From contig OZ255843.1 in assembly GCA_965277775.1 (NCBI GenBank), positions 160,306 through 224,305 on the forward strand: DNA of 64,000 bases. The letters are read 5' to 3'. The notes under the pieces were generated by a model, which was not told the origin of the DNA, did no database searches, and saw nothing but the letters and a program-made list of their open reading frames with translations. The translations under genes and the position numbers were made by a program. The stretch's first letter is position 1. Every line of letters starts with the position of its first letter. Positions 6,039-42,915 of this stretch are shown here, in pieces. The stretch comes from Gammaproteobacteria bacterium. Its GTDB lineage: Bacteria; Pseudomonadota; Gammaproteobacteria; CAKMZV01.

Positions 6039-6899
6039 TCATCTGTTTTTTTGTTTCATCCAAGCGTCGCGTGCCACCTTAGCCTCATTCATAAATTCAA
6101 ATAAGGCAACAGCATCCTCATTGTCAATGTTTGCCTGTAAGAGCTTAAGTCGCTCTATATATTCACTCAAAGCCTTGTTTATGGGTTCTTTATTGGCGAG
6201 CGCAATGTCACGCCACATGGCGGGACTGCTTGAAGCGGTGCGCGAAAAATCGCCAAAGCCTCCGGCTGCGAGGTCAAAACACTCCGTTTTATACTCAGAA
6301 TGAATAATAAAATCAACCATGGCAAAGGCAAGCATGTGCGGCATATGGCTGACTTGAGCCAATATTTTATCGTGGTCATTGATGTCGATGTGTTGGATCA
6401 AAGCGCCGCAGTCTTGCCATATTTGTACAGTGGTTTCATAAGCAGCAGCGGAATGATTGGTGTGTGGACACAGAACCACAGTTGCATCGTTAAATAAGGT
6501 GGCAACGGCTGAACCCACGCCAATTTGTTCTTTGCCAGCAATGGGGTGGGCAAAAATAAAATTTGACGGAATTTGACCAAATACCGAAATAAGGTCTTGT
6601 TCAACCGATTTTTTGGTGCTACCCACGTCCATGACAACCCAGTCATCTTGCCAAATGGGTTTTAAAGATAGCAAAATGGCTTTGAATGCCCCGACAGGTG
6701 TGGCTAAAACAATGATTTGACAATCACCAGCGACTTGTTCGAGATGATCACTGCCCTCATCGATGGCGCCCTTTTGTATGGCTTTTTCGAGCGTTGTTGG
6801 ACGACCATAACCTTTTACTTTATAGCGTTTGGTTGCTTTTAACGCCAAACCCAATGACCCTCCAATCAATCCAACTCCAAGTATGGCGACGTTTTGCAT
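6039..6899 (-). CDS. tyrA: Prephenate/arogenate dehydrogenase
   Basis: GVGLIGGS, DVGSTK, HPIAGKE, SHMPH; follows pheA-hisC. Confidence 0.93.
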   Translation of the reverse strand: MQNVAILGVGLIGGSLGLALKATKRYKVKGYGRPTTLEKAIQKGAIDEGSDHLEQVAGDCQIIVLATPVGAFKAILLSLKPIWQDDWVVMDVGSTKKSVEQDLISVFGQIPSNFIFAHPIAGKEQIGVGSAVATLFNDATVVLCPHTNHSAAAYETTVQIWQDCGALIQHIDINDHDKILAQVSHMPHMLAFAMVDFIIHSEYKTECFDLAAGGFGDFSRTASSSPAMWRDIALANKEPINKALSEYIERLKLLQANIDNEDAVALFEFMNEAKVARDAWMKQKNR

Positions 6900-6908
6900 A
6901 TCAGTGGC

Positions 6909-7997
6909 TTACAACAGCGATTTTAAGGTGCTGACAAAACTTTGATTTTCTTGTTCTGTCCCAATGGAGACGCGCAAGTGTTCAGGCAGTCCATAAGCTT
7001 CAAGCCCTCGAACAATGATCCCTCTTTTGAGCAATTGTTGCTCAAGTTCAAAGGCGTTTTCACCAAAATATATTGTTAGAAAATTGGCTTGTGAAGGCAT
7101 CCAATTCAGCTTCAAGTTTTTGAGGGCGTCTTCGAGATTGCGCTTGCACTGATGATGCTTACTCATGCATGATTGTATCCAAGCTTGATCAGCAAGGGCA
7201 ATTTCGGCACATTCCAAAGCCAAGGCGTTGACATTAAAAGGATGACGAATGCGGTTGAGCAGATCGGTTATAGCCGTAGAAGCCAAAGCATAGCCCACAC
7301 GTAATCCAGCCAAAGCATAAGCTTTTGAAAAGGTTCGAGAAATGATTAAATTTGGGAATTGGTCCAACCAAGGCACGCTGTCGTAAGCACGAGCTTGTTC
7401 AATATACTCGGAATAGGCCTCGTCCAAAACCACAAAGGTGGTTTTGGGGACTTGCTCGAGAAAACTGAATAAATCGTTCTGATCGATGAATGAACCCGTG
7501 GGGTTGTTTGGGTTGGCTATGAATATCACCCCAGTCTGTTCATTGATGGCATTCAGACTGGCCTTTAAATCAAAACCATAATTTTTTGAATCGATGACTT
7601 GCAAAGGCGCATTGACACTTTTGGCTGCGATGAAATAGACCACAAAGGCAAATTGTGAGAATAATGCACTTCTGCCCGTTTGTAAAAACACCCGAGCCAC
7701 CATATCAAGTATGTCATTGGAGCCATTGCCCAAAGTGATTTGATTGGTTTGAATGCCATGATGGCTGGCCAAAGCTTGTTTTAACTTAAAACCATTGCCA
7801 TCGGGGTAACGCAATACTTTTTCGGGCAAATCATTTAAGGCTTCGTTGAGCAAAGGCGTGGGACCAAAGGCATTCTCATTTGATGCTAGTTTGATCACGT
7901 TTTGTACGCCGTATAAGCGAACGACTTCTTCTATGGGTTTGCCTGGCTCATAAGGACTCAGAGACTGAATGCCTTTGTGCGTATGCGAGGAGATCAT
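6909..7997 (-). CDS. hisC: Histidinol-phosphate/aromatic aminotransferase
   Basis: KLASNEN, GNGSND, NPNNPTG, DEAY, RTFSKAYALAGLRVGY; start placed at ATG 7997 (ATGA overlap with pheA stop). Confidence 0.93.
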   Translation of the reverse strand: MISSHTHKGIQSLSPYEPGKPIEEVVRLYGVQNVIKLASNENAFGPTPLLNEALNDLPEKVLRYPDGNGFKLKQALASHHGIQTNQITLGNGSNDILDMVARVFLQTGRSALFSQFAFVVYFIAAKSVNAPLQVIDSKNYGFDLKASLNAINEQTGVIFIANPNNPTGSFIDQNDLFSFLEQVPKTTFVVLDEAYSEYIEQARAYDSVPWLDQFPNLIISRTFSKAYALAGLRVGYALASTAITDLLNRIRHPFNVNALALECAEIALADQAWIQSCMSKHHQCKRNLEDALKNLKLNWMPSQANFLTIYFGENAFELEQQLLKRGIIVRGLEAYGLPEHLRVSIGTEQENQSFVSTLKSLL

Positions 7998-9094
7998 GCG
8001 TCCTGACTTTGCGGGAAAGAACCCAACACACGCAACCAATTCGTATGTTTGAGCAAGGTTTTTAAGACATCTTTTAATGGGGGTTCATCATGGTGCCCCT
8101 CGACTTCAATATAAAAAATATAGTCCCACAAGGTTTTGTGAGAAGGCCTCGATTGGATAAGACTTAAGCTTAGTTGAGCTTCACTAAAGGTCGCCAGAAT
8201 TTTGTGTAAAGCCCCTGTTTCATTCTTGATCGCTAAGGCCAATAAGGTTTTGTCTTTGCCACTGGGTCGGGTTTTGTTCTTACTGATCACAATAAAGCGC
8301 GTCTGATTGTCAAAACTGTTTTGTGTGTTCGATTTAAGGATTTCCAAGCCATAAATTTGGGCCGCCGTTTTGGACGCGATGGCAGCATAGCCAATCCCAT
8401 TGTCTTTGGCCATTTGAGCGGCTTGCGCGTTCGAGGCCACAGGCACCAACTGGTCTGCTTTGAAACAGCTTAACCAATTGTGGCATTGTTTAAAGCTTTG
8501 CTGATGGGCATATATTTTCTCAATGTTTTTAAACGTTGTCCCTGCACCAGCAATCAAATTATGTTGCACCAAAAGTTTTATTTCCAAACAAGCGGAAAGT
8601 TCTGTGTCGGCAATCAATCCGTCAATGGACTCGCTGACCACACCGCCAAAAGAGTTTTCAAGCGGTATAACCCCGTATTGAGAATGCCCTTGACAAACAT
8701 CGTTGAAAACGGCTTGAGTGCTTGGTTGTGATGAAAAAACGGCCGCATGACCAAAATGACCAAGTGCTGCCTCATGACTGAAGGTGCCTTCAGGGCCTAA
8801 ATAGGAAATGGTTTGCACCTGCTCTTGTGCCAAGCAAGCAGACATTATTTCACGAAAAATACTTTGGACTGAGGCGTCTGAAAAAGTCGGATAAACCGTT
8901 TCTTTGAGTTTTAATAGACGGCGCATGATTTGCGCTTCTCTTTCAGGCCTAAAGAAAGTTGTTGTTTGTTTTTGCGGCGTCTGCGCCTTTAAATTGCCGA
9001 TTTTACGCGCCAACTGAGCCCTTTCGAGCAAGGTTTTTAACAGGGCATCGTCCGCCTTATCTATGGCACTGCGTAGGCGATTCAATTCATCCAT
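7994..9094 (-). CDS. pheA: Chorismate mutase/prephenate dehydratase (P-protein)
   Basis: LRSAID...RPERE mutase domain, YLGPEGTFS, PLENS, NQTRF, SRP ACT domain. Confidence 0.95.
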   Translation of the reverse strand: MDELNRLRSAIDKADDALLKTLLERAQLARKIGNLKAQTPQKQTTTFFRPEREAQIMRRLLKLKETVYPTFSDASVQSIFREIMSACLAQEQVQTISYLGPEGTFSHEAALGHFGHAAVFSSQPSTQAVFNDVCQGHSQYGVIPLENSFGGVVSESIDGLIADTELSACLEIKLLVQHNLIAGAGTTFKNIEKIYAHQQSFKQCHNWLSCFKADQLVPVASNAQAAQMAKDNGIGYAAIASKTAAQIYGLEILKSNTQNSFDNQTRFIVISKNKTRPSGKDKTLLALAIKNETGALHKILATFSEAQLSLSLIQSRPSHKTLWDYIFYIEVEGHHDEPPLKDVLKTLLKHTNWLRVLGSFPQSQDA

Positions 9095-27722: not shown

Positions 27723-27872
27723 AAATACTCCGTGTATGTCATTGCTGTTGTATTAGCGATTATCATACCACGAATAACCTCAAGGGTTGTTTGTTCCTTC
27801 CCCAAAAATAATGCGTGGAAATGGTGAATCTAGAATGCATGCATACGATAAATTTGGAGGACAGATCACCAA

Positions 27873-27896
27873 TGCCTGTAAGAACATTTACAGGCA
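27873..27896. terminator. Hairpin downstream of the island operon
   Basis: TGCCTGTAA-gaacat-TTACAGGCA 9-bp stem; weak U-tract. Confidence 0.35.
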
Positions 27897-27898
27897 AC
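27889..27898 (+). repeat. Left copy of direct repeat TACAGGCAAC flanking the AT-rich island
   Basis: Identical 10-mer at 32444-32453 (12/13 match when extended). Confidence 0.45.
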
Positions 27899-27957
27899 CT
27901 ATTCAATAAAGAATGGTGTTTAGCTAGTAATTTAAATTAATAATGTAGATGCTTTAT

Positions 27958-30108
27958 TTAGGGGATATTACTTATTTTCCAACTGATTAATGCCCTTTCA
28001 GCAGCAGCTTTGGTTAACCATACAATTTCACTTATACGCTTTATATTTTCACTTTTTGTTGCTTCTTCAAAACACACCTCACAACAGACTTGCTGTAAGT
28101 TTTTATATTTTAATGGCCTATCAGAAAATAAATTCCTTGCCCTATGAAAATTGTATTTGCCAATATTTATTCCAATTAATGCCGAATAAAAATCTTTTGG
28201 GTAGCTTAGATTTAATCTAGTATTAATATGCTCCTTTATAATATCTGTTTCAATAATTTTATTTGTTGAATGCATCAATTTCATTATCAAGCCCATAATT
28301 TCAGAAACATTAACGTTTTCAAAAGCTTTTTCGGGAGTTGTGTACATTGTTCTATCAATATGGACAACCTTTTCTTCTTTTATCAATTCCTGTAAATAAT
28401 AATGTGCATGCTGCATGCTTTTACTTCGTATTACTTCAGCAATCTCATATATTGTCATTGCTCCTTTTGCACGGCTTAGCGCTTGAACAATAACTTTCCT
28501 CTGAGTTACCCGTTCACAATTTTCAAATATGCTGACATGGTCAACACCTGAACGACCATTAAAAATCACACCAACTGCACCACCGTACTCTTTAACAATA
28601 TGTCTTAATGTAAAGTATTCAATTTCTGGACGCTCATTCTTTGTTTGTTGGAAAAAGTCATGTAAATTAATAGCGGTAATTTTATTCAACTCAAAATATT
28701 CTAAAAGATGCAATAAAATTGAATCTAAATCAAATTCATTAATATCAAGAAATTTTTTATGTCTATAGTGTCCATGACTACACAAATAAATATATTCAGA
28801 ATCATTAAACCCATGAGTCGATCGTTCAGCATTTATATGTTTTGCAATTCCTAGCTTATTAGCAATTTTTGCTATATCTTTCCAGGGCAATCCTTCGGGG
28901 TGAGAAACAAGCACATGCGCAATAGCTTCTTTCTGTCTTAAATTTTGAGGGACTATGCCATCATGTTCAGATTTAATCACACCCAATTTAATCATTTTAT
29001 TTACCGTCATTTCAGCTAGAGCACTGGTGTATCCAAAATATGAAGTTAATTCTACAAGGACGGCATGTTTAGGCACAGGGGAAGGGGTTACACAAAAATA
29101 GGGATCTAGAATTCTTTTGTTTTTTAAAGGACTATTTGTTAAGGGAATAGAGCCTTCATTGATACTGCCCTTTTTTTTATGGCAACATAGTTCTAAAAAA
29201 TTTAAAAATGTTTTTTCTGATTCAAAGCATTTATATAAATGGGGTAAACATTGTGTTAAGTCGTCATTTAAACTTCCTTGTAAATTTGCCCATAACACTT
29301 CAGGATGGATTCTAATAGATAGCAACAATTTTTCATTATTTTGTTGTTCAAGTTGTCGTACTCTTTCCCTAGTACATCCGTATTCTTTAGCAATTCCTTC
29401 CAATGTCTTAGTCTTATGATTATATCCCCATCGTGATAATGCAATATATTGTTGTAAATCACTTAAAGACCATAAGTATTTTTCGATATCATCAAGTAAA
29501 TATTTTTCAATGACACTCATTGAATAAAATTTAATTTCACTAGAAACCAAAAGCTCTGAATCGAAGATCGAAAGGTTGGAATGATTACCTGCTATATTTA
29601 TTAATTCAGATGTAATTCTTGCTTGCAAAGAAATCAGCGAATTTGAATAGGATTTTCCAATGCCTTTTGTTCTATTTAAATCATTCTCTTCTAATTCAAT
29701 AATATCTTTTGCCGATATTGCACCAAAAAAGCGTTCTAATTTTTCAAGTGATTTTATTTCGCTGTCACTTAAAGATTGATAATTTAAATGAAGATTTGAA
29801 AGAGCTGATGGAATAATACAAAACCTTGGATGGATTTCAAATTTATTCTCTTTCAGTGACGTCAATGAATAATCCATTCTTTCGGTCAATTCTCTTTGTA
29901 ATTGAGCCAATAGGTGCACATATTTTTTCCCAACAGCTGGTAATGAATTAAAATATTTTAAGTCTAAATCTAATATCCCACCAACATTCTCAGGTATTTT
30001 GTTAGTACGCGAACTATTAAAATTGCAGATTCGTTTAAATAACTTTTTATATTTTGATGGCAATTTAGAAAAAGGAATTGCCCGGAAATCATCAAAAACA
30101 TTAGTCAT
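27958..30108 (-). CDS. 716-aa protein: two alpha-CTD-like HhH units, a sigma70 region-4 domain and multiple winged-helix domains
   Basis: NVGGILDLDLKYFNSLPAVGKK and AKDIIELEENDLNRTKGIGKS; LSDLQQYIALSRWG...TLEGIAKEYGCTRERVRQLE; ATG at 30108 overlaps the upstream stop (ATGACTAA). Confidence 0.8.
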   Translation of the reverse strand: MTNVFDDFRAIPFSKLPSKYKKLFKRICNFNSSRTNKIPENVGGILDLDLKYFNSLPAVGKKYVHLLAQLQRELTERMDYSLTSLKENKFEIHPRFCIIPSALSNLHLNYQSLSDSEIKSLEKLERFFGAISAKDIIELEENDLNRTKGIGKSYSNSLISLQARITSELINIAGNHSNLSIFDSELLVSSEIKFYSMSVIEKYLLDDIEKYLWSLSDLQQYIALSRWGYNHKTKTLEGIAKEYGCTRERVRQLEQQNNEKLLLSIRIHPEVLWANLQGSLNDDLTQCLPHLYKCFESEKTFLNFLELCCHKKKGSINEGSIPLTNSPLKNKRILDPYFCVTPSPVPKHAVLVELTSYFGYTSALAEMTVNKMIKLGVIKSEHDGIVPQNLRQKEAIAHVLVSHPEGLPWKDIAKIANKLGIAKHINAERSTHGFNDSEYIYLCSHGHYRHKKFLDINEFDLDSILLHLLEYFELNKITAINLHDFFQQTKNERPEIEYFTLRHIVKEYGGAVGVIFNGRSGVDHVSIFENCERVTQRKVIVQALSRAKGAMTIYEIAEVIRSKSMQHAHYYLQELIKEEKVVHIDRTMYTTPEKAFENVNVSEIMGLIMKLMHSTNKIIETDIIKEHINTRLNLSYPKDFYSALIGINIGKYNFHRARNLFSDRPLKYKNLQQVCCEVCFEEATKSENIKRISEIVWLTKAAAERALISWKISNIP

Positions 30109-32308
30109 TGTTAATTCTCTCACGATACAGCTTGAGCTGGTTTATGAAAAAAAACTCCGATTGGAATAAATCTTTGATTTGTTGCCGTTCTTTCGTTGAT
30201 AACTGTTTTAAATCCGATGGAATTAATATGAGTTTAGCATATTTATTTTTCATTTCTGTTTCACCATTTATATCTCTTTTGGGCTCAATGTTTTTTTTAG
30301 ATATTTCTGAACTAGTGTGGAACGAATTAGTGTTGTATTCATCAGGAGACTCTCGTAAATTGTCCACTTCTTGTTCTGTATAAAGCAATAAGTTGTTCTC
30401 TTTGGATGCAGAACTAATTGCTTGTGAAGAAGGCTGAATCGAATTGCGTAGCCAAAAGTTATTTAAATATTTTTGACATCTTTTTTTAAACTCGACAGGC
30501 ACAGACATTTGAGGAAAGGTTGCTTGTATATAGCCCCAATATGAATCAAAATGCGTTGCTATTTGATCACGAGTGATATCCTTTAATTGCTCATGAACAT
30601 TTTCAAAATTTGGGATTTTTTTATGCAAATTATAATATTTTTCTAATTTTTCAATAGCTTGTGATCTTGATTTGAGTCTATATTCTAAATCCTTAATGAG
30701 CTTTAAAACTTCAGCAGCAGATTGGTTGTAGATCACTTCAAGCGACGTATCAGAATACTTAGAGTGCTTATTATGCGGCGGTTTTTCCCAATTTTTATTA
30801 TCTATGGGCGTATTTTCGATAATTTTCTTTAATTGCTGCACTTCATTTAAACGATCAAATGACCCAACAAAATCTAACACATTAACATATTCCTTATTTG
30901 ATGTTTTCCTCAGCCCTCTTCCTAATTGTTGCAGCCAGACAGTACGCGACCCTGTATATCTCATAAAAACAAGTAAATTCGTTTCGGGGATATCGATGCC
31001 TTCATTAAATAAGTCGCAAACCAAAATATATCGAAATCCAGATTCTCTAAAATCCCTAATATTCTGGCGTCGTTGTTGATCTGACATTTTCGAATGAACA
31101 TATGTTGCGCTCCCCGACGGGAAAAACTGGATAAGATGATTGATATGAGAAATTCTCCGACAGAATATAATTCCTTTAGGATTCGCTATTTTCTTGTCTT
31201 GAATGGTTTGTTCTATGATCCTAACAACTTCTTCATCTTTCTTATGTAAAAACAAATGATTGTCCAAATCACTTATACTCAATCCCTGCTTAAGCTGGTC
31301 TATTTTTCGTTGATCGAGATCATCTAATAACACCAGGTATTTTGGAAAGGCCAATTTATTGTGTCGCAATGCCCATGCTAAATCATATTTGCCAATATGG
31401 CCATCGGTTCCTCCAAAAAAGGCTAAGACATCTTTGATATCTTCACGGAAAGGAGTTGCAGTTAAACCGATTAAATATTTCGGATTAAAGTGTTTTACAA
31501 CAGTTGAATAGGTCCTTGCTGGAACATGATGCGCTTCATCTACAATAACGATATCAAATTCATTTTTACTTAAATCGTTTATTTTTATATGAAGGGTATC
31601 AAAACTACCGAAAACAAAATCAGTATTTTCTGGATTTGAACCATCAAAACAAGCAGAAAAGGAATGGTTACCAATCCCAAAAACATTTTTAAATGCCGTG
31701 ACCGATTGCAATAATATTTCTATTTGATGTGCTAAAAATAATACGCGCTGTTTAGAACGATTCTGTAAAACACGTTTGACTAAATGCGCAACCGTATAAG
31801 TTTTTCCAAGCCCAGTTGCCATTTCAATCAACATTTTTTGTTTGCCCGAATTTATTATTCCAAAACATTCTTGAATTACTGACTCTTGATAAACTCTGGG
31901 TTTAATTTCACGTCCAATTTCTGAACGTTTTTCGACCCACAAATTTTGAAGTGCATCCCGATCGACCAATTCTACGCCCAATCGTAAGGCTCTGATTTTT
32001 ACCTCCGAAGTGAAGTAAGAGTTCGTTACCAAAATCATATGGGCAACTCTGGCTAATTTTGCCCCTGTAACTAATTGATTCAGAGCTTTAACGTCAACTG
32101 ACACTCCCCTTTGTCGTTGTTTGACTTCAATGGCAAAAGTTCTTTTATTTTTATAGGCAAAAATATCAACGCCCCCATCCCCATGTGAAAACTCTTTACC
32201 AACTTGGGTAATGGTTGCATCCGTCCAACCAGCCGCAACAAAAACGTCTCGAACAAATATTTCAAAGTCACTTGATGACAGCTTGTCAATTGACTTGAAG
32301 TCTATCAC
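30101..32308 (-). CDS. Mrr-like restriction endonuclease fused to SF2 (ResIII/DEAH) helicase
   Basis: FEIFVRDVF...GDGGVDI...IEVKQ...VTNSYFT; MATGLGKT, DEAHH, TATP, FNEGIDIP, QQLGRGLR; GTG start with AGGA RBS. Confidence 0.9.
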   Translation of the reverse strand: MIDFKSIDKLSSSDFEIFVRDVFVAAGWTDATITQVGKEFSHGDGGVDIFAYKNKRTFAIEVKQRQRGVSVDVKALNQLVTGAKLARVAHMILVTNSYFTSEVKIRALRLGVELVDRDALQNLWVEKRSEIGREIKPRVYQESVIQECFGIINSGKQKMLIEMATGLGKTYTVAHLVKRVLQNRSKQRVLFLAHQIEILLQSVTAFKNVFGIGNHSFSACFDGSNPENTDFVFGSFDTLHIKINDLSKNEFDIVIVDEAHHVPARTYSTVVKHFNPKYLIGLTATPFREDIKDVLAFFGGTDGHIGKYDLAWALRHNKLAFPKYLVLLDDLDQRKIDQLKQGLSISDLDNHLFLHKKDEEVVRIIEQTIQDKKIANPKGIIFCRRISHINHLIQFFPSGSATYVHSKMSDQQRRQNIRDFRESGFRYILVCDLFNEGIDIPETNLLVFMRYTGSRTVWLQQLGRGLRKTSNKEYVNVLDFVGSFDRLNEVQQLKKIIENTPIDNKNWEKPPHNKHSKYSDTSLEVIYNQSAAEVLKLIKDLEYRLKSRSQAIEKLEKYYNLHKKIPNFENVHEQLKDITRDQIATHFDSYWGYIQATFPQMSVPVEFKKRCQKYLNNFWLRNSIQPSSQAISSASKENNLLLYTEQEVDNLRESPDEYNTNSFHTSSEISKKNIEPKRDINGETEMKNKYAKLILIPSDLKQLSTKERQQIKDLFQSEFFFINQLKLYRERINND

Positions 32309-32443
32309 TTTTAATTCCTAATCCTTTGGATATATTATTCATTCTTATGTTTCTTGTAGAATTTTAAGATGTTTATTCTGTTTTTAGATGTGCAAGATAT
32401 TCATTGTAACAGACGAGTTTTGTTTTCTTTCACTCAAGCAGGA

Positions 32444-32453
32444 TACAGGCAAC
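32444..32453 (+). repeat. Right copy of direct repeat TACAGGCAAC
   Basis: Matches 27889-27898; lies near where AT-rich composition ends. Confidence 0.45.
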
Positions 32454-32458
32454 ATAGA

Positions 32459-34307: not shown

Positions 34308-35453
34308 ATGAATACAATGAAACCAACCATTGACCCATATCTATTTGAAAAACAGTTTGGTGCATTCAAGAAATTCGTTGAAGAACAATCCAAAGTTTCT
34401 TTTGTGTCTTTTGCATCCAACCCATACACAGAAGATGAAGAAGGTTACAAATCTGAAATCTATAGAGAGGCTAGGAGTAAACTGGTTTTTCAGGATTGGA
34501 AAGAATCAGACATTGGCAGGGGCGATATTATTGCATCAACCATCGAATCAATAGAAATTCAAAAAAATAATTTAATCCTGTGGCAAAGCCGCCGTGGGGA
34601 TGACAATCGCCCTCATCAAGCATTATACAAAGCAAGACAAGATCCTGAAAAAATAAAAGCAGTAGAACAACGCCTTTTCAATCTTTTCCACGAGACAGAT
34701 GTTGAAGCATCATTTGGCGGTTTGATTGAATTATTTGGGCAGAAATACACAATTATTGCTTATTTGTTATTCCTGAAAGATCGTTCTAAATATTTACCCA
34801 TTGCCACAACATATTTCGATAATTCATTTGAATTATTGGGCTCAAACTTCAAAACAACAAAGCAATGCTCCTGGGAAAACTATACCCAATATCTCGATTT
34901 AATCAGTCAGCTTAAAACAATGCTATCTGAGGCTTTATCAACTGAGGCGTCATCATTTGAAGTTTCAATGTTAGATGCTCACTCATTTGCTTGGATGCTC
35001 TCGTCTCAAATGAAGGAAGAAAATTTAGCAGATGTAAAGGAATATTTGAGCCTAACTGACACAGAGCGCGAGACAATAGTAAAAGCTCGTAAAGGTCAAG
35101 GGCCATTCAGAGAGCGCCTTATCAAATATTGGGCATCGTGTGCCGTTACTGGATGCCAAAAGCACACTCTACTGATAGCGTCACATATTAAACCTTGGGC
35201 AAAGTCGGATAACACAGCAGAGCGTTTGGATCTTTATAATGGCTTGTTACTGTCACCAAACTTAGATGCCTGTTTTGATTCAGGCTTTATAAGTTTTGAT
35301 GATTCGGGCAAGATTTTACTATCAAATGAATTGACTGAAAAAGACATACATGATTTGGGCATAAACAAGGACATGAAATTGTCCCATATCGACCCTAAAC
35401 ACCATAAATACCTTGCCTATCATCGAAAAAACATATTCAAAAAGAGCTTATAA
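34308..35453 (+). CDS. HNH endonuclease with uncharacterised N-terminal domain
   Basis: RKGQGPFR...CAVTG...ASHIKPW...NGLLLSPNLDACFDSG...YLAYHR. Confidence 0.88.
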   Translation: MNTMKPTIDPYLFEKQFGAFKKFVEEQSKVSFVSFASNPYTEDEEGYKSEIYREARSKLVFQDWKESDIGRGDIIASTIESIEIQKNNLILWQSRRGDDNRPHQALYKARQDPEKIKAVEQRLFNLFHETDVEASFGGLIELFGQKYTIIAYLLFLKDRSKYLPIATTYFDNSFELLGSNFKTTKQCSWENYTQYLDLISQLKTMLSEALSTEASSFEVSMLDAHSFAWMLSSQMKEENLADVKEYLSLTDTERETIVKARKGQGPFRERLIKYWASCAVTGCQKHTLLIASHIKPWAKSDNTAERLDLYNGLLLSPNLDACFDSGFISFDDSGKILLSNELTEKDIHDLGINKDMKLSHIDPKHHKYLAYHRKNIFKKSL

Positions 35454-35569
35454 TCACCCTTACTGACAGCAAAAAACTGTCACTTGTTCCTGACTAAGTC
35501 TTGTGCAGTCAGTTCCGCAAACAGTACTGTTGAAACCAGGAAGGAATTTTATAAAATAGGAAAATTACA

Positions 35570-36913
35570 ATGTTGAATTTAAAAGGCACACCATATCTAT
35601 TGGAGGCTGAGGCTGAAGAAGGAATAATAGCACAAATCAAAGCATTAGAAGAAAGAGTTGAGATGCTGAGAAATTCAGGCAAACTCACGCAAGAAACGCT
35701 TATTGATTATTATGGTGAAAAAAAATTTGAGCAAGTGGCTGAATCTAATGCAATAGAGGGTAGCACGCTTTCTGTTGGAGAAACAGAATTGGCCGTTCTG
35801 AAGGGAACGACAACCACGGGTCATGATCCCGCCTATGTTAAGGATGCGATTTCATTAGAAAAGGCCTTAGCTAGATTAGCTGATATGGCAAAAAACAAGG
35901 AACAAGCCACCGATTTCAATCAACTGCATGAACTACACGAGCTGATCATGGGAGACAGGCCAGGTGGTGGTATTTTCCGAAGGGAACCTGTCAGAATTAA
36001 GGGCGCGGAACATCACCCCCCCGAAACTTGGAATGAAGTAATCTCTGCTATGGAACATTGGCAAAGTTGGTCGGTTGACAATAAAAACCTTTCAGCACTT
36101 GTTAGATCGGTCATTCTGCATGCTTGGCTGACTCATGTTCATCCTTTTTTAGATGGTAATGGGCGTTGTGCTCGGGCAATTGCTAACTTAGAGTTGGTAA
36201 GAGCAGGCTATCCGCCAATCATAATTCGCAAAAAAGAACGGGATAGATACATTGATGCCTTAGCTGAGTCAGATTCAGGCGGGGATATACGCTCATTTTT
36301 TGAACTGGTTATTGAAAGAGCAGAAGGTGCACTAACTGGCTTGGAGCTCTCTGCTAAAAGTCAGCAAGATTATAATCCTGCCCTCGAAAAAATAAAAATA
36401 CTGCAGACTAAAAATCTTCGGATATGGGAAACAAGTGTTGCCTTACTGGTTAAGACAATGGATCACTATCTAACAAAATTGTTGGAACAAGTGAATGGCA
36501 GTGCATACATACGAGAGTTTGAATCGCCTCTGGACTTAGAGGATTACACAGGTTTAATGGAGCGAAAAAGTGCATCTCGAACATGGTGTTTTATTGTTAA
36601 TGTTTCTGTGCCAGGTTTTGAAAAATTAGAAAGACTAGCATACATCAGTTTCCGCCAACCTCATCTTTTTCACCATATGAACGACATTGGTGGCCCCACC
36701 ATATACTGGTCAAAGAAAAACCCTTCTGGTTACCCAAAGTGGATAACGGATGAGAAAAACGCACCCTTTTGCACTGAAATGACTATTGAAGAAGGCATTG
36801 GTGATGCGTGGTCTGCAAGACTAATCGATGGGTCAATAAAAAAATATTCAACGACGGCTCTTGCAAAGAAAATTGCAAATGCATTGGTCGAATTAACAGC
36901 AGAGAACAAGTAA
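35570..36913 (+). CDS. Fic-family protein with N-terminal inhibitory motif and unknown C-terminal domain
   Basis: HPFLDGNGRCAR active motif; SNAIEG motif. Confidence 0.92.
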   Translation: MLNLKGTPYLLEAEAEEGIIAQIKALEERVEMLRNSGKLTQETLIDYYGEKKFEQVAESNAIEGSTLSVGETELAVLKGTTTTGHDPAYVKDAISLEKALARLADMAKNKEQATDFNQLHELHELIMGDRPGGGIFRREPVRIKGAEHHPPETWNEVISAMEHWQSWSVDNKNLSALVRSVILHAWLTHVHPFLDGNGRCARAIANLELVRAGYPPIIIRKKERDRYIDALAESDSGGDIRSFFELVIERAEGALTGLELSAKSQQDYNPALEKIKILQTKNLRIWETSVALLVKTMDHYLTKLLEQVNGSAYIREFESPLDLEDYTGLMERKSASRTWCFIVNVSVPGFEKLERLAYISFRQPHLFHHMNDIGGPTIYWSKKNPSGYPKWITDEKNAPFCTEMTIEEGIGDAWSARLIDGSIKKYSTTALAKKIANALVELTAENK

Positions 36914-40544: not shown

Positions 40545-40859
40545 ATGGATATGTTCGACCTAATCTGCCACACCGACTTTGACCAACCACCTCTCACACG
40601 CGCTGAACGGGCCAAAAACGTCAAAAAAAGCGATTACTTCAACCAATACGGCGAACAGGCGCGCATAGTATTGGAAGCCCTGTTAGACAAATACGCCGAC
40701 GAAGGCATTGAGAACATCAAAGATATGAAAACACTGCAAATCAACCCACTCAATCAATTTGGCTCCCCACTAGAAATCGCTGATCTATTTGGTGCTAAGG
40801 TAAAATATCAACAGATATTGGTAGAACTTAAAAATGAAATCTATAGAGGAGTAGCATAA
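40545..40859 (+). pseudogene. hsdR: 3' remnant of type I restriction subunit (EcoEI-R C-terminal domain only)
   Basis: DMFDLICHTDFDQPPLTRAERAKNVKK...YGEQARIVLEALLDKYADEGI; nuclease and helicase domains absent; starts 7 bp after dctM. Confidence 0.8.
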
Positions 40860-42076
40860 TGGCTGATTTTAAAATCAAAAGATTAAATATATCTGAAATC
40901 AACTTGGATGAAAAAAATCCTAGACTTGAGCCCACAAATTCACAAAGAGAAGCCATAAATATGCTCATGTCTGACCAAAAAGATAAGCTAATGAAATTGA
41001 TAAAACATATTTCGATAAACGGATTAAATCCAACAGCAAGAATTTTAGTTTTCAAAGAACATGGAAAAATAATAGATGGTGATGGCAATAGAAGAGTAGC
41101 CGCAATAAAAATTGCTCACACACCAGAACTATTAGATGATCAAGGATTGGTAAAGACTATAAAATCAATCAATATTCATAATTTTCCGTATGAAATAGAC
41201 TGTGTGATTTTTGAAAGTAGAAAGGATGCAGAGATTTGGATTAAACTTAACCATAATGGGCAAGGTGGTGGTGAGGGCACAATTCCATGGAGTTCTCAAG
41301 CAAAGGATAGATTCAACAACGTAAAAAGTATTGGAACACAGCTTATTGAACGGTACATAGAGCAAACTGACCAGTCGTCATATCAGAAAACAACTATGGA
41401 TAGGTTCTTTGGGAATAAATTTATAAGAGAGGAATTAAATCTTAAAAGAGATGATGGAATAATCGTTTTTGATGTAATTAACGATAAAAGAGCAAAAAAT
41501 TTAATTAAAAATCTAAAAAACGTTAAAGTATCTGAAGTTTATGATAATAAGAAAATTAAAATATTCTACCATGAAAATTTGAATAACCTTGATGAACAGG
41601 ACGAGGGTGAAAAAAATAATGCTAATGAACATCCGCCAGTTAAGTCAAGACCAACGACTACGTCGAGAAATGGAGTAGTAGCAACAGATTTTAATCTGAA
41701 GATTCATTGTGAGAAGACAAATAATATACTTAATGAGTTGAAAGAAATGGATGTTAGTAGTTTCCCTAACGCATCAGCTTGTCTCTTGAGGGTTTTTTTG
41801 GAACTATCGACTGACTATTATCTCTGCAAAGAAAAGGTAGATTTTAATAAAGAAATGAAGCTTTTGGGACGAATAAAAGTAGTCTTGGGTAAAATCAATC
41901 TAACAAAAAATGAAGAAAATGCATTAAACTCAATAATTTCTGATAAGAACAACCCCGTAAATACACATATTTTAAATTCTTATGTTCATAACAGACATCA
42001 TCATCCTGAAGCAAGTAGTTTAAAAACTGGCTTTGAGAACTTGAAACCTCTTTTTATAAAAATATACGGAAAATGA
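40859..42076 (+). CDS. ParB-like N-terminal plus HEPN-like C-terminal protein (PD-Lambda-5 A-like)
   Basis: LDEKNPR, DGNRR (ParB/Srx-like), NASACLLRVFLE...LNSYVHN (HEPN-like); AT-rich; TAATG coupling to the hsdR remnant. Confidence 0.7.
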   Translation: MADFKIKRLNISEINLDEKNPRLEPTNSQREAINMLMSDQKDKLMKLIKHISINGLNPTARILVFKEHGKIIDGDGNRRVAAIKIAHTPELLDDQGLVKTIKSINIHNFPYEIDCVIFESRKDAEIWIKLNHNGQGGGEGTIPWSSQAKDRFNNVKSIGTQLIERYIEQTDQSSYQKTTMDRFFGNKFIREELNLKRDDGIIVFDVINDKRAKNLIKNLKNVKVSEVYDNKKIKIFYHENLNNLDEQDEGEKNNANEHPPVKSRPTTTSRNGVVATDFNLKIHCEKTNNILNELKEMDVSSFPNASACLLRVFLELSTDYYLCKEKVDFNKEMKLLGRIKVVLGKINLTKNEENALNSIISDKNNPVNTHILNSYVHNRHHHPEASSLKTGFENLKPLFIKIYGK

Positions 42077-42915
42077 CCTTTTATTCTCCATTAAGATATC
42101 CTGGAGGTAAATCTCGATTGGCCCCTTTTATCAAACAAATCATCAAAAATAATGATTTGTTGGGGATTAGTTATATTGAACCTTATGCTGGCGGAGCTGG
42201 TGTTGCACTGCAACTCTTATTTGAAGAATATGTGTCTGAAATAACAATCAATGATTATGATCCGTCCATTTATTCATTTTGGTATAGCGTAGTTAATGAT
42301 ACAGAATCTTTTTGCAAAAAAATCAATGAAACTCCAATCAATATGGATTCTTGGTTTAAACAAAAGGAAATTCAAAAAATTGGTTTAAACAAAACTAATT
42401 TTTTTGAATTTGGTTTTTCAACATTTTTTCTTAACAGGACAAATATCTCTGGTGTCATTAAAGGTGGGGTGATTGGTGGTAAGAGCCAAGAAGGTAAATA
42501 CAAAATTGATGCTAGATTTAATAAAAAGAAACTGATTGAAAAAATAAAAAAAATAGGTAGGTATAGAAATAAAATTCATGTGATAAACGAGGATGCAAAA
42601 AATATTTTACAAAAGCAAATGGATGGTTTTTTTATTTATATTGATCCGCCATATGTATCGAAAGGGAGGGGTTTGTATATGAACTTTTACCAAGAAAATG
42701 ATCATAGAGAAGTATCAGAAGCCCTTTTAGAAAATGACTCAAATTGTTTTTGGGTTCTATCGTACGATACAAATGATTTAATTCAAGATTTATACGCCAA
42801 TTGTGAAAATAAAATTTCTTGGGATTTAAGTTATGGAACTTCAAATCGCAAGGGAAAAGAAAACATTTATCTGCATCCAAAATTAGAATTTAAGAAAGCT
42901 ATGATTGCACTATAA
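42073..42915 (+). CDS. DNA adenine methyltransferase (Dam/D12 class)
   Basis: SPLRYPGGKS, EPYAGG, LNRTN, DPPY; ATGA overlap with the upstream gene. Confidence 0.93.
   Translation: MTFYSPLRYPGGKSRLAPFIKQIIKNNDLLGISYIEPYAGGAGVALQLLFEEYVSEITINDYDPSIYSFWYSVVNDTESFCKKINETPINMDSWFKQKEIQKIGLNKTNFFEFGFSTFFLNRTNISGVIKGGVIGGKSQEGKYKIDARFNKKKLIEKIKKIGRYRNKIHVINEDAKNILQKQMDGFFIYIDPPYVSKGRGLYMNFYQENDHREVSEALLENDSNCFWVLSYDTNDLIQDLYANCENKISWDLSYGTSNRKGKENIYLHPKLEFKKAMIAL

What the first reader, a model, noticed from the sequence alone, without database searches (positions are those of the whole stretch)
27958..32308. Candidate undescribed defence system: Mrr-nuclease/SF2-helicase coupled to an RNA-polymerase-mimic protein (2x alpha-CTD plus sigma4 plus wHTH array)
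Seen: an AT-rich two-gene operon with an 8-bp stop/start overlap and no methyltransferase. Gene 1 has an Mrr-type D...ExK nuclease, a complete DEAH helicase and an unknown tail. Gene 2 has two alpha-CTD-like HhH units, a near-consensus sigma70 region 4 (TRERVRQLE versus TRERIRQIE), no recognisable sigma region 2 (so not a true sigma factor), and several winged helices. Known: alpha-CTD binds UP elements and sigma4 binds -35; both surfaces are targeted by phage (T4 AsiA/MotA act on sigma4, Alt/ModA ADP-ribosylate alpha-CTD). Inference: gene 2 is either a decoy sensing phage RNAP-hijacking proteins or a reader of strong UP/-35 phage promoters, and it licenses the nuclease-helicase. I do not recognise this pair as a named system.
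Basis: partly seen in the sequence, partly recalled or inferred. Interest (0 to 1): 0.85.

Follow-up and report, generated by a model that had tools for sequence, protein, structure and literature searches.

The report
Nuclease-helicase with RNA-polymerase-like DNA reader
A mobile two-gene cassette pairs a DNA-cutting motor enzyme with a large DNA-binding protein built from borrowed RNA-polymerase parts; it looks like an uncharacterised restriction-type phage defence rather than a transcription factor.

Summary
Window 27958-32308 (- strand) carries two genes that overlap by 8 bp. They sit in a 4.6-kb low-GC insertion (31-34% against about 44%) that a sister genome lacks.

- **Gene 1** is an Mrr-type nuclease joined to a complete DEAH SF2 motor and a helical tail.
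- **Gene 2** has two HhH units, a sigma-70 region 4, and five winged helices. HhH unit 1 folds like the RNA polymerase alpha C-terminal domain (alpha-CTD). The region 4 is 35% identical to the host's RpoD. One winged helix is HARE-HTH-like. There is no sigma region 2.

The pair is tightly conserved: gene 1 lies upstream of gene 2 in 47 of 48 loci with enough upstream DNA. No third gene or methyltransferase is conserved. Four of 10 large neighbours tested are known defence proteins.

The sigma4/winged-helix module also occurs fused to GmrSD, MmeI-type methylase and HerA-type or AAA ATPases, and next to SIR2.

Best reading (0.55): a methylase-less, HsdR/SauUSI-like restriction system in which gene 2 is the DNA-reading subunit. 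The decoy idea is not excluded, but the evidence leans against it.

No PADLOC model or paper in the searched library describes the pair. By recall, the gene 2 architecture was noted in 2012. I rate it a new variant of a known kind, interest 0.6.

The parts
27805..32442 (.). 4.6-kb low-GC insertion (the cassette), lying between a GST gene and an amidohydrolase gene
   Evidence: In same-genus genome G031 the flanks (92-93% identical) abut with an 8-bp gap. Bases 1-1805 and 6444-8301 of window:26000-34300 match; the middle is absent. GC is 0.31-0.34.
30101..32308 (-). Gene 1: 735-aa nuclease-helicase (Mrr-type PD-(D/E)xK + SF2 DEAH motor + tail)
31940..32290 (-). Gene 1 residues 7-123: Mrr_cat nuclease domain, with D48, E61 and K63 invariant
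   Evidence: Pfam PF04471 at 2.5e-17; invariant columns in A2
30854..31906 (-). Gene 1 residues 135-485: SF2 helicase/translocase core (GKT, DEAH, TAT, QxxGRGxR)
   Evidence: ResIII 1.1e-35 and Helicase_C 2.7e-14. PADLOC mREase_IV 1.1e-52 over the helicase region only. NCBIfam EcoAI-type HsdR 7.5e-40, far below its cut-off.
30104..30853 (-). Gene 1 residues 486-735: helical tail, variable linker and conserved C-terminal motif; candidate docking region for gene 2
   Evidence: No Pfam hit. The EcoAI HsdR alignment runs on to residue 590. Identity to homologues is 43%, 21% and 35% in the tail against 74-80% in the enzyme core. Complex prediction gives weak support: 0.51 against best control 0.00.
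27958..30108 (-). Gene 2: 716-aa HhH x2 + sigma-70 region 4 + five winged helices
29869..30096 (-). Gene 2 residues 5-80: HhH unit 1, alpha-CTD-like fold
   Evidence: VIA-align: 1z3e_B (RNAP alpha CTD) Z 6.8, rmsd 2.1 A, 64 aligned; 4mex_A Z 6.6, rmsd 2.0 A, 66 aligned. It is not a Pfam PF03118 hit itself.
29584..29811 (-). Gene 2 residues 100-175: HhH unit 2
   Evidence: Same helix pattern as unit 1 in the models. hhalign against an RpoA-CTD profile gives E 0.0014, in register on the second hairpin. Relatives hit HHH_5 in 10 of 30.
29314..29523 (-). Gene 2 residues 196-265: sigma-70 region 4 HTH
   Evidence: Pfam 1.6e-5; family profile against SigA 5.8e-8; 35% identical to host RpoD region 4; Z 8.6 to 4xln_F; Foldseek 8cyf_B rmsd 1.8 A over 64 columns, 34% identity.
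28114..29088 (-). Gene 2 residues 341-665: array of five winged helices; residues 391-455 are HARE-HTH-like
   Evidence: DSSP of the model. Foldseek top hits are tandem winged-helix arrays (UFL1/DDRGK1, SelB 1lva, TFIIIC). Residues 534-598 give Z 10.6. HARE-HTH scores 19.2 bits here (cut-off 25.9) and hits 6 of 30 relatives, best 1.1e-5.
27889..27901 (+). Left copy of an imperfect 13-nt direct repeat flanking the cassette
   Evidence: the repeat finder D19: 12 of 13 identical to 32444-32456. D12 extends the likeness. The right copy overlaps the empty-site sequence of G031.
32444..32456 (+). Right copy of the 13-nt direct repeat

Best explanation
The cassette is a mobile, methyltransferase-less, ATP-dependent restriction-type defence module made of two subunits.

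Gene 1 is the effector. It is an HsdR/SauUSI-like motor nuclease: an Mrr-type PD-(D/E)xK nuclease, an SF2 dsDNA translocase and a helical tail.

Gene 2 is the DNA-reading, specificity or licensing subunit. It is built from alpha-CTD-derived HhH units (minor-groove and backbone binders), a sigma-70 region-4 HTH and five winged helices, one of them HARE-HTH-like.

Inferred steps:
- Gene 2 docks on the fast-evolving tail of gene 1, taking the place that the HsdM2S complex has in type I enzymes.
- It binds long stretches of DNA and recognises a feature of foreign DNA. Because no methylase accompanies it, that feature is most likely a modified or otherwise non-host DNA state (type IV logic).
- It then releases ATP-driven translocation and cleavage by gene 1.

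Shown here: the domain content, the intact catalytic motifs, the strict gene pairing, the mobility, and the reuse of the module with other DNA enzymes. Inferred: physical binding, what is read, and protection against phage.
For: (1) Enzyme. The Mrr_cat, ResIII and Helicase_C domains are present with all catalytic motifs invariant in 19 homologues. The helicase core is closest to type IV mREase_IV models (1.1e-52) and to EcoAI-type HsdR (7.5e-40, with the alignment running into the tail). tblastn of gene 1 against plasmids finds DUF3427 (SauUSI-type) proteins through the helicase core.

(2) Pairing.
- Genome set: gene 1 lies upstream of gene 2 in 22 of 23 loci with >=1.7 kb of upstream DNA. In 21 it is adjacent; in one a two-gene insertion separates them; the Kofleriaceae locus has none.
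- Metagenome set: 25 of 25 loci for a clade only 27-33% identical in gene 2.
- The genes overlap or lie <=22 nt apart, and no third conserved gene exists.

(3) Mobility and defence context. A sister genome has the empty site. The cassette GC is 31-34%. Of 10 large neighbours from 10 loci, 4 hit PADLOC: PtuA 4e-158, an AriA/PtuA-like ATPase, MkoA and RT_UG24.

(4) Gene 2 as a DNA reader.
- The sigma4 recognition helix T-R-E-R-x-R-Q-x-E is >=90% conserved in A1, and E, R, R, Q remain so in the distant set A4.
- The winged-helix folds match DNA- and RNA-binding winged helices at Z up to 10.6.
- In the subclade with a canonical alpha-CTD (54% identical to that host's RpoA), the R-x-x-N-C-L-K and N-L-G-x-K-S-L-x-E-I stretches are kept. 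By recall these carry the DNA-binding '265 determinant'. The adjacent D-D-L-E and T-E-N-D-L-L stretches are changed.

(5) The module recurs with DNA-acting partners. It is fused to GmrSD_N/C, Eco57I/MmeI methylase, HerA/TrwB ATPases and an AAA ATPase. MzaA carries a related HhH+sigma4 end.

(6) Docking. The gene 1 tail diverges like gene 2 (21-43% identity against 74-80% for the core). The complex prediction gives weak support only: ipSAE 0.51, best of 3 controls 0.00. That mark was reached by 58 of 80 solved complexes and 2 of 110 mismatched pairs, but scores of 0.60 or under were reached by only 7 of those 80 and by both mismatches that passed. The runs agree in >=73% of contacts and the partner's pLDDT is >=68.
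Against: - There is no experimental evidence of defence, binding or cleavage.
- The modification-dependent part rests on three indirect points: the absence of a methylase, a sub-threshold HARE-HTH match in the window protein (19.2 against 25.9 bits), and analogy.
- A sigma4 that keeps the -35-contact residues might bind host promoters too, which a simple restriction model does not explain.
- One distant homologue sits in an operon with FHA and SIR2_2 proteins. That is an abortive-infection-type effector and fits a sensor role better than a pure DNA-targeting role.
- The neighbour sample for defence context was small, was chosen by size, and had no background control.
- No homologue of gene 2 was found in 50,697 phage records, which says nothing either way about targets.
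- The full-length model has pTM 0.46, so the arrangement of its domains is not reliable.
Confidence: 0.55

Rival explanations
1. Promoter reader. Gene 2 recognises promoter-like architecture (an A/T-rich UP-like tract through the HhH units plus a -35-like hexamer through sigma4) on incoming DNA. It loads the motor nuclease there, so strong phage early promoters are the trigger.
For: The sigma4 helix reads TRERVRQLE, against TRERIRQIE in the host's RpoD. The residues that by recall contact the -35 bases are >=90% conserved even in members 19-34% identical. The HhH units are alpha-CTD-like in fold, and a bona fide alpha-CTD in one subclade keeps its DNA-contact stretches.
Against: Host promoters would be bound too, and no self-protection is evident. 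The number of HhH units varies from about 1 to 3-4, and they are the least conserved part (25-29% identity). The most conserved part is the winged-helix array (50-58%), which this model leaves unexplained.
Confidence: 0.17
2. RNAP-surface mimic or decoy. Gene 2 displays sigma4 and alpha-CTD surfaces as bait for phage proteins that hijack RNA polymerase, or it rides on RNAP through the beta-flap. Capture of such a factor licenses the nuclease-helicase.
For: Sigma4 is 35% identical to the host's RpoD region 4. One subclade carries an alpha-CTD 54% identical to its host's RpoA, and the arginine that by recall is ADP-ribosylated by T4 Alt/ModA is kept. A distant homologue is paired with FHA + SIR2_2, an abortive-infection-type effector. 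The same module serves many different effectors, as sensors do.
Against: The window protein's own HhH units are too diverged to hit PF03118. After the recognition helix the basic activator and anti-sigma contact stretch of RpoD (AKALKKLR) reads QQNNEKLL. In the canonical alpha-CTD subclade the protein-contact stretches are the ones that changed. Most fused partners are DNA enzymes that need a DNA-targeting domain. The five conserved winged helices have no role in a decoy model.
Confidence: 0.13
3. Not a defence system. The cassette is a mobile-element or housekeeping DNA-transaction module (repair, recombination or transcription-coupled processing) in which gene 2 is a regulator or an RNAP-associated factor.
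For: NCBI's automatic GO terms call relatives transcription-initiation proteins. The nuclease-helicase architecture also occurs in repair enzymes: NCBIfam gives weak RadD, Hef and XPB matches.
Against: The cassette is present in one and absent in another genome of the same genus. Its distribution across unrelated hosts is sporadic and its flanks vary. Defence genes lie next to it. No sigma region 2 is present. All repair-family scores lie far below their cut-offs.
Confidence: 0.1

Closest known systems
Type I restriction subunit HsdR (EcoAI/FtnUII family)
   Same: An N-terminal PD-(D/E)xK nuclease, an SF2 DEAD/DEAH translocase and a helical C-terminal region that docks the DNA-recognition partner. 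NCBIfam NF046051 aligns to residues 127-590 at 7.5e-40.
   Different: The score is 137 bits against a cut-off of 550. No HsdM or HsdS lies in the cassette or in related loci. The partner is the HhH/sigma4/winged-helix protein instead.
SauUSI-type type IV restriction enzymes (PADLOC mREase_IV; DUF3427 proteins)
   Same: No methylase, ATP-dependent, and the closest helicase core (PDLC03659 at 1.1e-52). tblastn hits to DUF3427 proteins come through the helicase core.
   Different: The nuclease is Mrr-type rather than the nuclease of those models, whose N-terminal ~200 positions are unmatched. There is no DUF3427 target-recognition domain. Recognition would be supplied in trans by gene 2.
Alpha-subunit/sigma/HARE-HTH proteins of Aravind & Iyer 2012 (Cell Cycle 11:119)
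   Same: By my recall of the abstract, this is the same architecture: features of the RNAP alpha subunit and of sigma factors combined with HARE-HTH, set in the context of restriction systems and modified DNA.
   Different: That was a computational note only. I could not read the paper (not held), so I cannot say whether the Mrr-helicase partner, the five-winged-helix array or the fusions found here were described. Papers citing it that I did read mention only HARE-HTH fused to REases.
MzaA of the Mza system, and the sigma-related HTH insert in a DndH variant
   Same: MzaA's C-terminal end (model positions 571-702 of 726) matches gene 2 residues 136-267, that is HhH + sigma4. A Dnd paper reports a sigma-factor-related HTH between the REase and HerA/FtsK domains of a gammaproteobacterial DndH variant (passage read). 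HerA/TrwB fusions of this module were found here.
   Different: The NF041931 score is 28.5 bits against a cut-off of 800, and PADLOC MzaA gives E 0.025. No MzaB-E or Dnd genes are present. The winged-helix array is not part of the MzaA match.

Membership tests
Sigma-70 family sigma factor | Region 4 (-35-binding HTH) | tested here: met
   Pfam 24.8 bits against cut-off 24.1; family profile against SigA 5.8e-8; Z 8.6.
Sigma-70 family sigma factor | Region 2 (core binding and -10 recognition) | tested here: not met
   No Sigma70_r2 hit at E<=1. All NCBIfam sigma alignments cover only the last ~100 model positions and lie far below their cut-offs.
RNA polymerase alpha C-terminal domain (PF03118) | Sequence match to the family model in the window protein | tested here: not met
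   A six-frame scan of the own genome finds only RpoA. hhalign gives E 0.016 and 0.0014, probability 3-18%.
RNA polymerase alpha C-terminal domain (PF03118) | Alpha-CTD fold, and homology through relatives | tested here: inconclusive
   Unit 1 against 1z3e_B: Z 6.8, rmsd 2.1 A, 64 of 67 aligned. This is the best hit for that region but a middling Z. 8 of 30 relatives hit PF03118, best 2.4e-22, but in a separate first unit.
HARE-HTH (PF05066) | Match above the gathering score | tested here: inconclusive
   The window protein scores 19.2 bits against 25.9. 6 of 30 relatives match at E<=0.01 at the homologous position, best 26.2 bits.
Type I R-M (HsdR) | Nuclease plus SF2 motor | tested here: met
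Type I R-M (HsdR) | HsdM/HsdS partners; equivalog score | tested here: not met
   No methylase or S subunit is conserved in 28 + 30 loci. The score is 137 bits against cut-off 550.
SauUSI-type type IV enzyme | Full-length match including the nuclease and the DUF3427 recognition domain | tested here: not met
   The PADLOC match covers only model positions 238-569 of 945. Pfam finds no DUF3427.
Type IV (modification-dependent) restriction in the broad sense | Cleaves only modified DNA; no cognate methylase | not testable with these tools
   The absence of a methylase is shown. Dependence on modification needs biochemistry.
Mza system (MzaA) | Equivalog score and MzaB-E neighbours | tested here: not met
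   28.5 bits against cut-off 800. The neighbours are a GST and an amidohydrolase.
Any PADLOC-DB v2 system | A model hit for both genes | tested here: not met
   Gene 2's best hit is E 0.025. Gene 1 has helicase-region or Mrr-domain hits only. DefenseFinder was not available.

The most novel reading that the evidence does not exclude
The sigma4/alpha-CTD/winged-helix protein is a portable sensor that presents RNA-polymerase surfaces. It either baits phage transcription-takeover factors or rides on RNAP to inspect DNA as it is first transcribed. It then licenses whichever effector it is wired to: Mrr-helicase here; GmrSD, MmeI-type enzymes, HerA or AAA ATPases and SIR2 elsewhere. That would be a new sensing principle shared by a whole set of defence systems.
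Probability: 0.12. Interest if true: 0.9.

Novelty: new variant of a known kind. Interest (0 to 1): 0.6.

Why it matters
Motor-driven restriction enzymes are known with methylase-based (type I/III) or built-in (SauUSI, McrBC) recognition. Here the recognition subunit is assembled from RNA polymerase's own promoter-binding parts plus a winged-helix array.

The same module is reused with at least five other effector types. The family is not tiny: 238 clusters at 50% identity score E<=1e-30. It also reaches conjugative IncHI1-type plasmids of E. coli and Salmonella.

Working out what this module reads would explain self/non-self discrimination for several uncharacterised systems at once. It would also test a 2012 prediction that HARE-HTH proteins discriminate modified DNA.

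Tried and rejected
Other candidate systems. A true alternative sigma factor is rejected because region 2 is absent. Membership of SauUSI, HsdR, MzaA, PbeA, Dpd or Cas3 is rejected because only helicase- or Mrr-domain-level matches appear.

Fold searches that said little about alpha-CTD. Foldseek with the full-length model listed no alpha-CTD among the top 50 rows. Neither did Foldseek with the N-terminal model. Only the VIA-align wide search showed it.

Transposon or integrase ends. I looked for them and found no long terminal repeats, only a 13-nt imperfect direct repeat. The promoter-like scan gave 13 sites against 22.5 expected, so it is uninformative.

Scans for distant relatives. The scan with alignment A4 failed because no stretch was conserved enough. 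With A5 the only pattern used was the sigma motif: 593 stretches matched and 0 were confirmed.

Phage records hold no gene 2 homologue. Plasmids hold no close gene 1 homologue: 26 records matched, none covered >=80% of the query, and all were below 60% identity, about 28-35% in the 20 listed rows.

Protein atlas. All scores were below 0.9, so they are leads only: small Sigma70_r4 + HARE-HTH proteins.

Expression. No RNA holder was listed for the cassette.

Literature. The searches found no description of this gene pair. One search ('MzaA') returned only unrelated papers. PMC13069673 holds none of the terms sigma, Mrr, HTH or ResIII. Supplements were closed, so candidate-system tables in supplementary files of defence-discovery papers may list this pair without my seeing it.

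Full report
**What is there.** On the - strand lie a 735-aa ORF (30101-32308, GTG start) and a 716-aa ORF (27958-30108, ATG start). The ATG of gene 2 sits 8 bp inside the end of gene 1. Both starts agree with the N-termini of homologues. The two 2-kb bins that cover the genes have GC 0.313 and 0.339, against 0.43-0.47 on either side.

In a same-genus genome (G031) the flanking GST and amidohydrolase regions, 92-93% identical, abut with only an 8-bp gap. Window ~27805-32442 is therefore a 4.6-kb insertion. An imperfect 13-nt direct repeat (12 of 13) lies at 27889 and 32444. The cassette holds no integrase or transposase ORF.

**Gene 1.** Pfam finds Mrr_cat (residues 7-123, 2.5e-17), ResIII (135-288, 1.1e-35) and Helicase_C (364-467, 2.7e-14). 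In an alignment of 19 homologues the nuclease D48/E61/K63, the GKT motif, DEAH, TAT and the QxxGRGxR motif are invariant.

- PADLOC matches cover only the helicase region of type IV mREase_IV (1.1e-52), PbeA and type I REase models, or only the Mrr domain (PDC-S02).
- NCBIfam's best match is EcoAI-type HsdR (7.5e-40, residues 127-590), but at 137 bits against a cut-off of 550.
- The tail has no Pfam family. It carries a conserved helical part, a variable linker and a conserved C-terminal motif.

**Gene 2.** Pfam gives Sigma70_r4 (24.8 bits against cut-off 24.1) and a sub-threshold HARE-HTH (19.2 against 25.9).

A model built on 30 relatives has mean pLDDT 80.2 and pTM 0.46. It shows two five-helix HhH units (5-80 and 100-175), a sigma4 HTH (196-265), a helical connector, five winged helices (341-665) and a helical end.

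- Winged helices. Foldseek's best hits are tandem winged-helix arrays and sigma-A region 4. VIA-align gives Z 10.6 for residues 534-598 against the SelB winged helix.
- Sigma4. A separate N-terminal model (pLDDT 78.7) gives Z 8.6 for sigma4.
- HhH unit 1. In the same model its best matches are RNAP alpha-CTD: 1z3e_B at Z 6.8, rmsd 2.1 A, 64 of 67 residues, and 4mex_A at Z 6.6.
- Host comparison. The host's RpoD region 4 is 35% identical over 65 residues (E 1e-8). The recognition helix reads TRERVRQLE, against TRERIRQIE in RpoD.
- No sigma region 2 is detectable.
- Alpha-CTD by sequence. The window protein's own HhH units do not reach PF03118. Among 30 relatives, 8 hit RNA_pol_A_CTD (best 2.4e-22), 10 hit HHH_5, 24 hit Sigma70_r4 and 6 hit HARE-HTH.
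- Canonical alpha-CTD subclade. There it is an extra first unit. In one complete genome that unit is 54% identical to the host's own RpoA CTD.

**Is the pair real?** A pattern scan of 185,579 species genomes gave 28 loci.

- Of the 23 loci with at least 1.7 kb upstream, 22 carry a gene 1 homologue (55-79% identity).
- In 21 of them it is directly adjacent. One of these is split, one is truncated and one is cut by the contig end.
- In one locus a two-gene element, present twice in that locus, separates the pair.
- The most distant locus (Kofleriaceae, 28% identity) instead has FHA and SIR2_2 genes downstream in the same orientation.

A metagenome scan with a second clade (27-33% identical to the window's gene 2) gave 30 loci. 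All 25 with enough upstream DNA have gene 1 directly upstream, at 53-61% identity. No other gene is conserved around the pair, and there is no methyltransferase.

The gene 1 enzyme core is 74-80% identical across these hosts. Its tail (43%, 21% and 35%) and gene 2 (25-58% by domain) diverge much faster.

A complex prediction of gene 2 with the gene 1 tail gave weak support only. The ipSAE was 0.51 and the best of three controls 0.00. That mark was reached by 58 of 80 solved complexes and 2 of 110 mismatches, but scores of 0.60 or under were reached by only 7 of those 80 and by both mismatches that passed. The runs agree in at least 73% of contacts and the partner's pLDDT is at least 68.

**Context.** I tested ten large neighbours from ten loci. 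Four match PADLOC defence proteins: PtuA at 4e-158, an AriA/PtuA-like ATPase, MkoA and RT_UG24. The sample is small, was chosen by size, and has no background control.

The family has 238 clusters at 50% identity with E<=1e-30. It reaches three conjugative plasmids, typed IncHI1A where I looked, of E. coli and Salmonella. There an IS1 lies directly upstream of the gene 2 homologue, and no close gene 1 homologue is found on plasmids. None was found in phage records.

**The module elsewhere.** Long members of the family carry the sigma4/winged-helix module fused to other enzymes:

- GmrSD_N and GmrSD_C (P0233)
- Eco57I/MmeI-type methylase (P0182, P0198)
- HerA/TrwB-type ATPases (P0195, P0197)
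- an AAA ATPase (P0183)

MzaA's C-terminal end matches the HhH+sigma4 part weakly. A 2024 Dnd paper reports a sigma-related HTH inside a DndH variant (passage read).

**Mechanism.** The best-supported reading is a restriction-type system. An HsdR/SauUSI-like motor nuclease is directed or licensed by a separate multi-domain DNA reader that docks on its tail. Because no methylase accompanies it, the discrimination most likely relies on a property of foreign DNA, such as base modification.

This fits the HARE-HTH-like winged helix, the GmrSD fusions and the SauUSI-like helicase core. The near-invariance of the sigma4 recognition helix also argues that these parts are used to bind DNA. So does the retention of DNA-contact stretches, with loss of the neighbouring protein-contact stretches, in the canonical alpha-CTD subclade (determinant names recalled). 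I give this 0.55.

Three rivals remain:

- Reading of -35/UP-like promoter architecture (0.17).
The SIR2 pairing and the many different effectors keep this alive.
- A non-defence role (0.10).

**Novelty.** No PADLOC v2 model fits gene 2. Six literature searches found no paper on this pair. One candidate paper read by term search held none of the terms.

By recall of its abstract, Aravind & Iyer 2012 noted proteins that combine alpha-subunit and sigma features with HARE-HTH. The paper is not held, so the extent of the overlap is unknown.

I rate it a new variant of a known kind (motor-driven restriction with an unusual trans-acting reader), uncharacterised experimentally, interest 0.6.

Noticed in passing
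window 34308-36913: Directly after the amidohydrolase lie a 381-aa HNH_2 endonuclease-domain protein (34308-35453, 2.2e-12) and a 447-aa Fic/DOC protein (35570-36913, 8.6e-14). They sit in a lower-GC bin (0.385). This may be a second small accessory islet.
   Followed up: partly
window 40859-42915: A 405-aa protein with no Pfam hit (40859-42076) overlaps by 4 bp a 280-aa D12-class N6-adenine DNA methyltransferase (42073-42915, 5.3e-23). The two bins that hold the pair have GC 0.36 and 0.33. It is a candidate orphan-methylase or restriction-like pair, unrelated to the cassette studied.
   Followed up: partly
L027 6674-12152: The most distant genomic homologue of gene 2 (Kofleriaceae MAG, 28% identity) has no Mrr-helicase. 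It is followed in the same orientation, with gaps of 56 and 43 nt, by an FHA-domain protein and a 710-aa SIR2_2 protein. This is a different effector wiring.
   Followed up: partly
L005 2846-6971: In Methylobacter luteus a ~4-kb insert lies between a 3'-truncated gene 1 and gene 2. It carries two ORFs (507 and 249 aa) that recur inverted elsewhere in the locus, so it is probably an insertion sequence. In L011 gene 1 is split into two ORFs, and in L015 it is truncated. The system decays in some hosts.
   Followed up: no
L067 (E. coli plasmid NZ_CP070915.1) 7872-15117: On an IncHI1A conjugative plasmid an IS1B transposase lies directly upstream of the 816-aa gene 2 homologue, where gene 1 would be expected. 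An AAA family ATPase and a DUF4145 protein follow downstream. Salmonella plasmids give identical match statistics.
   Followed up: partly
G021:C8:3803-3919: A weak RNA_pol_A_CTD match (3.6e-4) lies inside a 694-aa open frame in another genome of the same class. It may be a further member of the gene 2 family.
   Followed up: no
gene 2 residues 294-679 (window ~28072-29229): Several cysteines are invariant or nearly so across 30 relatives: C294 and C679 are invariant, and C308, C309, C339 and C443 are >=90% conserved. A metal site or redox role is possible. I did not examine it in the model.
   Followed up: no
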